Positions 19,403 to 21,422 of a stretch of DNA of 64,000 nt are shown in pieces; positions within the stretch are counted from its first letter, which is position 1, and every line of letters begins with the position of its first letter. The notes beneath the pieces were generated by a model. That model did no database searches. It saw only the letters and a program-made list of their open reading frames with translations, and was not told the DNA's origin. The DNA comes from Escherichia coli (GTDB lineage Bacteria; Pseudomonadota; Gammaproteobacteria; Enterobacterales; Enterobacteriaceae), in NCBI RefSeq assembly GCF_044647545.1, contig NZ_CP172818.1; one strand, written 5' to 3'. The position numbers were made by a program, and so were the translations under genes.

Positions 19403-19990
19403 GTGACACCGACCCTTTTAAGTGCTTTTTGGACTTACACCCTGATTACCGCCATGACGCCAGGACCGAACAATATTCTCGCCCTTAGCTCAGCTACAAC
19501 GCACGGATTTCGTCAGAGTACTCGCGTGCTGGCAGGGATGAGTCTGGGATTTTTAATCGTCATGTTGCTATGCGCGGGAATTTCGTTTTCACTGGCTGTT
19601 ATCGACCCGGCAGCAGTGCATCTGTTGAGTTGGGCGGGGGCGGCATATATTGTCTGGCTGGCGTGGAAAATCGCTACCAGTCCAACAAAGGAAGATGGGC
19701 TTCAGGCAAAACCAATCAGTTTTTGGGCCAGCTTTGCTTTGCAGTTTGTGAACGTCAAAATCATTTTGTATGGCATTACAGCACTGTCGACGTTTGTCCT
19801 GCCGCAAACGCAGGCGCTAAGCTGGATAATTGGCGTCAGCGTTTTGCTGGCGATGATTGGGACGTTTGGCAATGTGTGCTGGGCGCTGGCGGGGCACCTG
19901 TTTCAGCGATTGTTTCGCCAGTATGGTCGCCAGTTAAATATCGTGCTCGCGCTGCTGCTGGTCTATTGCGCGGTACGCATTTTCTATTAA
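19403..19990 (+). CDS. eamB: LysE/RhtB-family cysteine/O-acetylserine exporter
   Basis: Track ORF 195 aa, polytopic membrane protein. Confidence 0.85.
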   Translation: MTPTLLSAFWTYTLITAMTPGPNNILALSSATTHGFRQSTRVLAGMSLGFLIVMLLCAGISFSLAVIDPAAVHLLSWAGAAYIVWLAWKIATSPTKEDGLQAKPISFWASFALQFVNVKIILYGITALSTFVLPQTQALSWIIGVSVLLAMIGTFGNVCWALAGHLFQRLFRQYGRQLNIVLALLLVYCAVRIFY

Positions 19991-19992
19991 TG

Positions 19993-20024
19993 AAAAAAGC
20001 GGAAGAGGTCGCCCTCTTCCGCTT
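19993..20024. terminator. Bidirectional terminator between eamB and grcA
   Basis: 10-bp perfect stem GCGGAAGAGG / CCTCTTCCGC, 4-nt loop, A-run upstream (T-run on minus strand). Confidence 0.7.
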
Positions 20025-20044
20025 AGTAACTTGCTACTTAAGCC

Positions 20045-20428
20045 TTACAGGCTTTCAGTAAAGGTACGAGCGATAACGTCGCGCTGCTGTTCCGGAGTCA
20101 GAGAGTTAAAGCGAACTGCATAACCGGATACACGGATGGTCAGCTGCGGATATTTTTCCGGATGCTTAACTGCATCTTCCAGAGTTTCACGACGCAGAAC
20201 GTTTACGTTCAGGTGTTGACCACCTTCAACGCGAACTTCTGGTTTCACTTCTACTGGAACTTCACGGTACTCAATGTCACCCAGTTTGCTTACTGCAACC
20301 ACTTCGTCTTCTGCAAAACCTGCTTTCGCAACGATGCAACGCGCTTCGCCTTTTTCGCTGTCCAGCAGCCAGAAAGAGTTCAGCAGATCGTCGTTAGCGG
20401 CTTTAGTAATCTGGATACCTGTAATCAT
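20045..20428 (-). CDS. grcA: Autonomous glycyl radical cofactor GrcA
   Basis: Track ORF 20045..20446; product starting [20 protein letters not shown] gives 127 aa; glycyl radical motif RVSGYAV. Confidence 0.92.
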
Positions 20429-20535
20429 GTGATGCCTCCCCGGCAAAATTATTTGATTTGTTCAGCCTGTCGCGGCCAATTGGTAAAACCATTGTTGCTT
20501 GAGTGTATATATACTCCTCAAACACCCTTGAATCT

Positions 20536-20549
20536 TTGATTTAAATCAA
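20536..20549 (-). promoter_or_regulatory. FNR binding site (promoter-proximal) upstream of grcA
   Basis: Perfect FNR consensus TTGAT-TTAA-ATCAA. Confidence 0.65.
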
Positions 20550-20588
20550 TAAAAACCACACATCAAGTATGGTCGCAAATGGATTTTA

Positions 20589-20602
20589 TTGTTTTACATC
20601 AA
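20589..20602 (-). promoter_or_regulatory. Second FNR-like site upstream of grcA
   Basis: TTGTT-TTAC-ATCAA, one mismatch to consensus; centre is 53 bp from the first site. Confidence 0.5.
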
Positions 20603-20732
20603 CTTATGCAGGTGTGAAATTTTACCAATTTACATTTTTTTGCACTCGTTTAAGTCTAAAAAATGAGCATGATTTTGTTCTGTAGAAAGAAGCAGTTAAG
20701 CTAGGCGGATTGAAGATTCGCGGGAGAGCGAG

Positions 20733-21422
20733 ATGGCAAACGAATTAACCTGGCATGACGTGCTGGCTGAAGAGAAGCAACAACCCTATTTTCTTAATAC
20801 CCTACAGACCGTCGCCAGCGAGCGGCAGTCCGGCGTCACTATCTATCCGCCACAAAAGGATGTCTTTAACGCGTTCCGCTTTACAGAGTTGGGTGACGTT
20901 AAAGTGGTGATTCTCGGCCAGGATCCTTATCACGGACCGGGACAGGCGCATGGTCTGGCATTTTCCGTTCGCCCCGGCATTGCGACACCGCCGTCACTGC
21001 TGAATATGTATAAAGAGCTGGAAAATACTATTCCCGGTTTCACCCGCCCTAATCATGGTTATCTTGAAAGCTGGGCGCGTCAGGGCGTTCTGCTACTCAA
21101 TACTGTGTTGACGGTTCGCGCAGGTCAGGCGCATTCCCACGCTAGCCTCGGCTGGGAGACGTTTACTGATAAAGTCATCAGCCTGATTAACCAGCATCGC
21201 GAAGGCGTGGTGTTTTTGTTGTGGGGATCGCATGCGCAAAAGAAAGGGGCGATTATAGATAAGCAACGCCATCATGTACTGAAAGCACCGCATCCGTCGC
21301 CGCTTTCGGCGCATCGTGGATTCTTTGGCTGCAACCATTTTGTGCTGGCAAATCAGTGGCTGGAACAACGTGGCGAGACGCCGATTGACTGGATGCCAGT
21401 ATTACCGGCAGAGAGTGAGTAA
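20733..21422 (+). CDS. ung: Uracil-DNA glycosylase
   Basis: Track ORF 229 aa; motifs GQDPYH and HPSPLS. Confidence 0.95.

What the first reader, a model, noticed from the sequence alone, without database searches (positions are those of the whole stretch)
20536..20602. Tandem FNR sites upstream of grcA
A perfect TTGAT-N4-ATCAA site and a one-mismatch second site lie 53 bp apart upstream of grcA. This spacing is consistent with a class II activator site plus an upstream modulating site for anaerobic induction.
Basis: partly seen in the sequence, partly recalled or inferred. Interest (0 to 1): 0.3.

Follow-up and report, generated by a model that had tools for sequence, protein, structure and literature searches.

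The report
Known tandem FNR sites, grcA promoter
The two FNR-binding boxes are real, but they are the already well-studied oxygen-sensing switch of the E. coli grcA (yfiD) promoter, so the finding is correct and ordinary.

Summary
The window is E. coli chromosome with the gene order eamB, grcA (minus strand), ung (plus strand). A perfect FNR box, TTGATttaaATCAA, lies at 20536-20549. A one-mismatch box, TTGTTttacATCAA, lies at 20589-20602, and the two centres are 53 bp apart, exactly as reported. These are the published FNR I and FNR II sites of the yfiD (now grcA) promoter, centred at -40.5 and -93.5 from a transcription start that maps to window 20502. The promoter sequence is identical to K-12 MG1655. 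Published FNR ChIP-seq lists both 14-mers as bound, with a peak between them. A sigma-70 ChIP peak sits within 1-2 bp of the start site. Delta-fnr transcriptomics lists yfiD as FNR-activated. The refinement is that the upstream box is a negative modulator: FNR bound there damps activation under full anaerobiosis, so expression peaks microaerobically. New here, but incremental: in 81 of 81 Enterobacteriaceae species examined both boxes are kept 52-53 bp apart, and the upstream box is never a perfect consensus, which suggests selection for weak binding. Pasteurellaceae carry a different tandem layout. Verdict: confirmed, already known, low interest.

The parts
20536..20549 (-). FNR I: perfect FNR box TTGATttaaATCAA, centred at -40.5 from the grcA start site. 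This is the class II activating site.
   Evidence: Sequence. It is the only perfect match in the window. Myers 2013 Table S6 lists it at 2714579 (U00096.2), score 17.25, bound. It is perfect in 66 and has one mismatch in 15 of 81 Enterobacteriaceae species.
20589..20602 (-). FNR II: one-mismatch FNR box, centred at -93.5. On the grcA strand it reads TTGATgtaaAACAA. This is the lower-affinity, down-regulating site.
   Evidence: Myers 2013 Table S6 lists it at 2714632, score 13.87, bound. Oligo m097 of PMC10208419 mutates exactly this box to make the stronger yfiD-m promoter. It is present in 81 of 81 species and never perfect.
20508..20513 (-). Probable -10 hexamer TATATA of the grcA promoter. 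There is no -35 consensus because FNR I overlaps that position.
   Evidence: Sequence. It is fully conserved in the 80-species alignment. The consensus promoter scan finds no complete sigma-70 promoter here, as expected for a class II activator-dependent promoter. The hexamer assignment is my inference from its position relative to the start site.
20502..20502 (-). grcA transcription start (+1), taken from the literature, giving a 74-nt 5' UTR (20429-20502).
   Evidence: Myers 2013 gives the FNR site at -40.5. The Park 2013 supplement gives the ArcA site 2714524-2714555 as '-10/22', which implies +1 at 2714545, equal to window 20502. Sigma-70 ChIP-seq peaks at 2714544 and 2714546 equal window 20501 and 20503. 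The start was not mapped here.
20481..20512 (+). Published ArcA-P site of three direct repeats, spanning -10 to +22 of the grcA promoter.
   Evidence: The Park 2013 supplement sequence TGGTAAAACCATTGTTGCTTGAGTGTATATAT matches the window exactly. It lies within a 44-nt block that is 91% conserved.
20479..20493 (+). PdhR-like box ATTGGTaaaACCATT at +10 to +24 of the transcript, probably the pyruvate-responsive repressor site.
   Evidence: Sequence, almost invariant in 80 species. yfiD is described as a PdhR target (Wyborn 2002, as cited in PMC10572922). Assigning this box to PdhR rests on the consensus as I remember it and was not tested.
20045..20428 (-). grcA (yfiD) coding sequence, 127 aa, the autonomous glycyl-radical cofactor.
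20733..21422 (+). ung, transcribed divergently. It shares the 304-bp intergenic region but is not part of the FNR switch.
   Evidence: ung (b2580) is absent from the FNR-dependent and O2-dependent operon lists, which do contain yfiD (Tables S8 and S12).

Best explanation
This is the FNR-controlled promoter of E. coli grcA (formerly yfiD).

Shown in the literature:
- When oxygen falls, [4Fe-4S]-FNR dimers first fill the perfect, high-affinity box FNR I. It is centred at -40.5, overlaps the -35 position, and activates RNA polymerase as a class II activator.
- As active FNR rises further under full anaerobiosis, the weaker box FNR II at -93.5 is also filled. FNR bound there damps the activation by FNR I. 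FNR II lies five helical turns upstream (53 bp), so on the same face of the DNA.
- The result is a band-pass response with maximal expression under microaerobic conditions.
- ArcA-P and PdhR add redox and pyruvate inputs. ArcA-P is reported to counteract the FNR II effect.

Shown here: the identity of the sequence with the characterised promoter, and the positions, spacing and evolutionary conservation of the boxes.

Inferred: the weak affinity of FNR II and the exact phasing are themselves selected traits. The molecular contact by which upstream FNR represses is not settled.
For: 1. Identity. The window is 100% identical to several E. coli genomes. It is identical to MG1655 from the grcA ATG through both boxes.
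2. Match to tested constructs. The promoter fragments in PMC10208419 map exactly. yfiD-P1 equals window 20485-20562 and contains FNR I only. Oligo m097 alters the G and the C of box II. Both constructs without a functional FNR II were much stronger under full anaerobiosis than the wild type, which was weak there and stronger when oxygen fell slowly.
3. Positions. The FNR site is listed at -40.5 in Myers 2013 Table 1. The title and citations of Green 1998 give -93.5. The 53-bp spacing measured here equals 93.5 minus 40.5. An independent start-site back-calculation from the ArcA table gives window 20502.
4. Occupancy in vivo. FNR ChIP peaks at 2714605 and 2714607 equal window 20562 and 20564, between the boxes. 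Both 14-mers are listed as bound predicted sites, and a sigma-70 peak lies at the start site.
5. Function. yfiD is listed as FNR-activated, and the aerobic/anaerobic ratio is 0.11.
6. Repression by position. Upstream FNR between -85 and -95 represses an FNR-activated promoter (Barnard 2003, as summarised in PMC11264516). The alpha-CTD is not involved at yfiD (PMC3445967). ArcA acts by disrupting FNR (PMC3798270).
7. Conservation. In 81 of 81 Enterobacteriaceae species both boxes are present, 53 bp apart in 76 and 52 bp in 5. The cores are 98-99% conserved against 62% for the spacer. Six divergent E. coli haplotypes have SNPs in the spacer but none in either box and no indels.
Against: - Nothing in the data contradicts the model.
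- The primary papers (Green 1998, Marshall 2001, Wyborn 2002, Barnard 2003) were not readable here. Their content is taken from titles and from how later open papers summarise them.
- The start site was not measured here, and window 20502 is a T on the transcribed strand, an unusual initiating base.
- ChIP-seq resolution cannot by itself prove that both boxes, rather than only box I, are occupied.
- The relative affinity of the two boxes is inferred from match quality (PWM scores 17.25 against 13.87).
Confidence: 0.95

Rival explanations
1. The upstream box FNR II is a co-activator (a class I-like helper) that increases anaerobic induction, which is how the first reader's wording could be read.
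For: Tandem CRP or FNR sites are synergistic at many other spacings (Barnard 2003, as summarised). The box is on the same helical face as FNR I.
Against: Promoters with FNR II mutated (yfiD-m) or deleted (yfiD-P1) were far stronger under complete anaerobiosis than the wild type. The title of Green 1998 is 'Downregulation ... by FNR occupying a site at -93.5'. Positions -85 to -95 are specifically repressive.
Confidence: 0.03
2. FNR II (or both boxes) mainly serves the divergent ung gene, whose ATG lies 137 bp from the FNR II centre.
For: The intergenic region is shared, and the ChIP tables label the peak 'yfiD/ung'. Conserved blocks of unknown role lie between FNR II and ung.
Against: ung (b2580) is absent from the list of operons differentially expressed in Delta-fnr and from the aerobic/anaerobic list, and yfiD is present in both (Tables S8 and S12). 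Mutation of FNR II changes grcA promoter output on a fragment that lacks ung.
Confidence: 0.03
3. The boxes are CRP sites, or sites for another CRP/FNR-family protein, rather than FNR sites.
For: CRP and FNR recognise related inverted repeats.
Against: Both boxes have the FNR-type TTGA core, with T where CRP needs G (GTGA). FNR ChIP-seq shows occupancy, and expression is FNR-dependent.
Confidence: 0.01
4. The second, imperfect box is a chance match in AT-rich intergenic DNA.
For: Matches with at most one mismatch occur six times in the window against 2.67 expected, which alone is not significant.
Against: Its core is 99% conserved, with a fixed 52-53 bp distance from box I, in 81 of 81 species whose flanking DNA has diverged to about 62%. 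It is invariant among E. coli haplotypes whose spacer carries several SNPs. Its mutation has a phenotype.
Confidence: 0.01

Closest known systems
E. coli K-12 yfiD (grcA) promoter, FNR I (-40.5) and FNR II (-93.5) (Green, Baldwin and Richardson 1998, Mol Microbiol 29:1113; Marshall et al. 2001, Mol Microbiol 39:747)
   Same: It is the same locus. The sequence from the ATG through both boxes is identical to MG1655, both 14-mers are the same, and the spacing is the same 53 bp. The published coordinates 2714579 and 2714632 map onto 20536 and 20589 with a single offset.
   Different: There is no functional difference. A single T/C SNP lies 7 bp upstream of FNR II (window 20610), and two more lie near the ung start.
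Synthetic tandem-FNR promoters derived from melR (Barnard, Green and Busby 2003, J Bacteriol 185:5993)
   Same: They combine a class II FNR site with a second upstream FNR site, and repression occurs specifically when the upstream site lies between -85 and -95. grcA's -93.5 falls in that zone.
   Different: They are engineered promoters with consensus sites. At grcA the upstream site is naturally sub-consensus, which adds the affinity difference needed for a microaerobic peak.
Tandem-CRP promoters with a repressing upstream site, such as guaB with CRP at -117.5 and the synthetic CC promoters (PMC3445967)
   Same: An upstream-bound CRP/FNR-family dimer reduces the output of an otherwise active promoter.
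   Different: At the CRP promoters repression works through the alpha-CTD. At yfiD the alpha-CTD is reported not to be involved.
E. coli ndh promoter, repressed by tandem FNR sites (from my own memory, Meng, Green and Guest 1997; not checked here)
   Same: Two FNR dimers are bound in tandem upstream of the start site.
   Different: At ndh both sites repress and neither is a class II activating site. At grcA the net effect of FNR is activation.

Membership tests
FNR binding site (CRP/FNR-family operator) | A 14-bp inverted repeat TTGAT-N4-ATCAA with the FNR-specific T-T-G-A core | tested here: met
   Site I matches 10 of 10 core bases and site II 9 of 10.
FNR binding site (CRP/FNR-family operator) | Occupied by FNR in vivo | tested here: met
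   This was not measured here. It is matched to published ChIP-seq on identical sequence: a peak at 2714605/7, and both 14-mers listed as bound in Table S6 of PMC3688515.
Class II FNR-activated promoter | Site centred near -41.5 (between -39.5 and -42.5), overlapping the -35 region, with a recognisable -10 and no -35 consensus | tested here: met
   The site is centred at -40.5 relative to the literature start site, window 20502. TATATA lies at 20513-20508. No complete sigma-70 consensus promoter was found. The start site itself comes from the literature and from the sigma-70 ChIP peak, not from this work.
Class II FNR-activated promoter | Expression depends on fnr and rises without oxygen | tested here: met
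   Literature tables list yfiD as 'Activated' in WT against Delta-fnr and give an aerobic/anaerobic ratio of 0.11.
Tandem-FNR down-regulated (microaerobic) promoter architecture of yfiD | A second FNR site 52-53 bp upstream, at -85 to -95, on the same helical face | tested here: met
   The centre-to-centre distance is 53 bp, placing the site at -93.5. The spacing is kept at 52-53 bp in 81 of 81 species.
Tandem-FNR down-regulated (microaerobic) promoter architecture of yfiD | Removing the upstream site raises fully anaerobic expression | not testable with these tools
   This is reported for constructs whose oligonucleotides map exactly onto the window.
Tandem-FNR down-regulated (microaerobic) promoter architecture of yfiD | The upstream site has lower affinity than the downstream site | tested here: inconclusive
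   Only sequence proxies are available: one mismatch against none, published PWM scores 13.87 against 17.25, and an upstream box that is never perfect in 81 species. No binding constants were seen.

The most novel reading that the evidence does not exclude
The non-consensus base of FNR II and its 53-bp phasing may be under purifying selection across Enterobacteriaceae. On the grcA strand the promoter-proximal half-site reads AACAA instead of ATCAA. It is A in 76, G in 4, and T in only one of 81 species, and that one species has a compensating mismatch in the other half. On this reading the weakness of the site is the selected trait that sets the oxygen level at which grcA peaks. Pasteurellaceae may have independently rebuilt a tandem FNR arrangement with the opposite polarity: a strong distal box and a weak proximal box, 42-43 bp apart.
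Probability: 0.5. Interest if true: 0.3.

Novelty: already known. Interest (0 to 1): 0.08.

Why it matters
Biologically nothing new is established for E. coli. The yfiD/grcA promoter has been the textbook example of 'activation by one FNR dimer, damping by a second' since 1998-2003, and it is already used as an oxygen-responsive part in metabolic engineering. The only added value is comparative. The weak upstream box and its helical phasing are kept in every enterobacterial species sampled, which fits a tuned, band-pass oxygen response being the selected function. Pasteurellaceae show a differently organised pair that nobody appears to have mapped.

Tried and rejected
- Reading the primary papers by DOI or PMC id failed: Green 1998, Marshall 2001, Barnard 2003 and the Thomason 2015 TSS atlas are not held. 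Their content was taken from citing papers and from supplementary tables instead.
- The first literature query with '-93.5' was rejected for syntax. The 'grcA FNR ChIP' search gave nothing relevant.
- The Rfam scan of 19900-20900 gave only two sub-threshold chance hits: a plant miRNA at 22.5 bits against a gathering score of 100, and SorY at 18 against 111. No known RNA element explains the region.
- A terminator-like hairpin on the minus strand at 20574-20554, between the two boxes, was considered and dismissed. It has 8 pairs with only 3 G-C, no upstream minus-strand gene to terminate, and lies in the SNP-rich spacer.
- A lone TTGAT half-site in the spacer (20566-20562 on the minus strand) has no partner half-site and is TCGAT in some E. 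coli strains, so it was rejected as a third FNR box.
- CRP-site, ung-regulation and chance explanations were considered and rejected (see rival explanations).
- I tried to locate the ung promoter by eye among the conserved blocks at 20672-20677 and 20686-20707, without a convincing result.

Full report
**Observation**

The sequence at 20536-20549 is TTGATTTAAATCAA and at 20589-20602 is TTGTTTTACATCAA.
- The first is the only perfect TTGAT-N4-ATCAA match in the 64-kb window. Shuffles give 0.09 expected, and 9 of 100 shuffles contain one.
- The second is one of six matches with at most one mismatch, against 2.67 expected.

The window is E. coli chromosome. The stretch 19900-21000 is 100% identical to several complete genomes and is annotated eamB, grcA, ung. 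grcA lies on the minus strand with its ATG at 20428 and stop at 20045. ung starts at 20733 on the plus strand. Both boxes are therefore upstream of grcA, in the 304-bp divergent intergenic region.

**Identity with the characterised promoter**

The region from the grcA ATG through both boxes is identical to K-12 MG1655. The 361 bp compared contain three SNPs, none in a box. grcA is the current name of yfiD (b2579).

The yfiD promoter carries two published FNR sites, at -40.5 and -93.5. The sources are:
- Marshall et al. [quoted passage not shown]

I could not open either paper. They are cited and summarised in PMC3688515, PMC10208419, PMC3445967, PMC3050613 and PMC11264516. The published separation, 93.5 minus 40.5, is 53 bp, which matches the window.

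**Transcription start**

Two independent tables fix +1.
- Myers et al. 2013 list the yfiD FNR site at -40.5. This puts +1 at window 20502.
- The supplement of Park et al. 2013 gives the ArcA site 2714524-2714555 (U00096.2) as '-10/22'. This implies +1 at 2714545.

The 14-mer coordinates in Myers Table S6 (2714579 and 2714632) give a single offset of 2,694,043 to the window, so 2714545 equals window 20502. Sigma-70 ChIP-seq peaks at 2714544 (anaerobic) and 2714546 map to window 20501 and 20503.

TATATA at 20513-20508 is a suitably placed -10 and is invariant in 80 species. The consensus scan finds no complete -35/-10 promoter, as expected where the activator site replaces the -35.

**In vivo occupancy and function (literature, identical sequence)**

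- The FNR ChIP peak at 2714605/7 equals window 20562/20564, between the boxes.
- Both 14-mers are listed verbatim as predicted sites that are bound, with scores 17.25 and 13.87.
- yfiD is 'Activated' in the WT against Delta-fnr comparison, and its aerobic/anaerobic ratio is 0.11.
- ung (b2580) is absent from both lists, which argues against the boxes serving ung.

**Direction of the upstream site's effect**

The supplement of PMC10208419 gives the oligonucleotides used to build yfiD promoter variants.
- m098/m099 (yfiD-P1, FNR I only) equals window 20485-20562 exactly.
- m097 (yfiD-m) changes the G of TTGAT and the C of AACAA in the box at 20589-20602.

Both variants were much stronger under complete anaerobiosis than the wild type.

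Citing papers add three points.
- The upstream site down-regulates even when the downstream site is occupied. An upstream FNR represses specifically between -85 and -95.
- The alpha-CTD is not involved.
- ArcA activates yfiD by disrupting FNR.

The output is a microaerobic maximum, not simple anaerobic induction.

**Comparative analysis (new here)**

I scanned one genome per species with a degenerate pattern for the GrcA N-terminus. All have the ATG 33 nt before the pattern.

*Enterobacteriaceae.* In 81 of 81 sequences (80 usable loci plus the window) both boxes are present.

| Feature | Count (of 81) |
|---|---|
| Spacing 53 bp | 76 |
| Spacing 52 bp | 5 |
| Box I perfect | 66 |
| Box I one mismatch | 15 |
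| Box II perfect | 0 |
| Box II one mismatch | 78 |
| Box II two mismatches | 3 |

The deviation in box II is almost always the same base (AACAA on the grcA strand). It is A in 76 species, G in 4, and T in one that has CTGAT in the other half-site.

In an alignment of 80 distinct upstream regions (median 63% identity to the window), conservation is as follows:

| Region | Conservation |
|---|---|
| Box I core | 98% |
| Box II core | 99% |
| Inter-box spacer | 62% |
| Box I to -10 interval | 58% |

Only windows inside one other block score higher.

*Within E. coli.* The 73-bp stretch covering both boxes is identical in only 1520 of 5411 genomes, and 1980 are at 90-95% identity. Six sampled haplotypes carry all their SNPs outside the two 14-mers and have no indels.

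These patterns fit selection on both boxes, on their phasing, and plausibly on the weakness of box II. The last point is an inference.

**Other inputs**

The other highly conserved block (20471-20514, 91%) coincides with the published ArcA three-repeat site, window 20481-20512. It also contains ATTGGTaaaACCATT at 20479-20493. This resembles the PdhR operator as I remember it, and yfiD is described as a PdhR target. I did not test that assignment.

**Mechanism**

*Shown in the literature:* FNR I activates as a class II site, FNR II down-regulates, and the promoter peaks microaerobically.

*Shown here:* sequence identity with the characterised promoter, exact positions, conservation of both boxes and of their spacing, and the conserved imperfection of box II.

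*Inferred:* sequential filling of the strong and then the weak site as active FNR rises, and the weakness of box II as a selected trait.

*Unknown:* the protein contact by which the upstream FNR interferes. AR1 is implicated by the 1998 title, and the alpha-CTD is reported not to be involved.

**Comparison and novelty**

This is the yfiD/grcA promoter itself, not a relative of it. It is already known, mapped, mutated, ChIP-verified and used as an engineering part. Interest is low. The comparative observations are incremental.

**Noticed in passing**

Pasteurellaceae have a different tandem layout. There are also conserved blocks of unknown role nearer ung. The SNP-rich spacer and the eamB/grcA terminator hairpin are listed separately.

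Noticed in passing
Loci L002, L010, L016, L025, L035, L038, L041 and other Pasteurellaceae loci; about 150 to 40 nt upstream of the grcA ATG: In 33 of 39 Pasteurellaceae species grcA is preceded by two FNR-like boxes 42-43 bp apart with the opposite polarity to E. coli. The distal box is strong (perfect in 18) and the proximal box is never perfect (1-3 mismatches). All 39 have an extended -10-like TGnTAAAAT whose hexamer starts 34.5-35.5 bp (25 loci) or 45.5 bp (6 loci) after the proximal box centre. If that is the -10, the boxes would sit near -47.5 and -90. A TTGAA-N3-TTCAA palindrome lies between them. No start-site data were available.
   Followed up: partly
window 20471-20514: This 44-nt block spans -12 to +32 of grcA and is 91% conserved across 80 Enterobacteriaceae species, more than either FNR box. 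It coincides with the published ArcA three-repeat site (20481-20512) and contains a PdhR-like box ATTGGTaaaACCATT at 20479-20493.
   Followed up: partly
window 20672-20677 and 20686-20707: Two strongly conserved blocks lie between FNR II and the ung start codon. On the minus strand they read as a promoter-like pair: TTAACT, a 16-nt spacer, then CAAAAT. On the plus strand they might belong to the ung promoter or leader. No separate sigma-70 ChIP peak is listed there. Their function is unresolved.
   Followed up: no
window 20550-20588: The spacer between the two FNR boxes is a SNP hot spot within E. coli. Only 1520 of 5411 genomes are identical over 20533-20605, and 1980 are at 90-95% identity. 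Both boxes and the 53-bp distance are nevertheless intact in all six haplotypes inspected.
   Followed up: partly
window 19997-20024: A hairpin of 12 pairs (7 G-C) followed by a T-run lies between the convergent eamB and grcA genes. It is probably a shared or bidirectional intrinsic terminator.
   Followed up: no
window 19403-19990 (eamB/yfiK): Myers 2013 Table S8 lists the neighbouring gene yfiK (eamB, b2578) as FNR-'Activated' in one of three data sets. No FNR box for it was looked for here.
   Followed up: no
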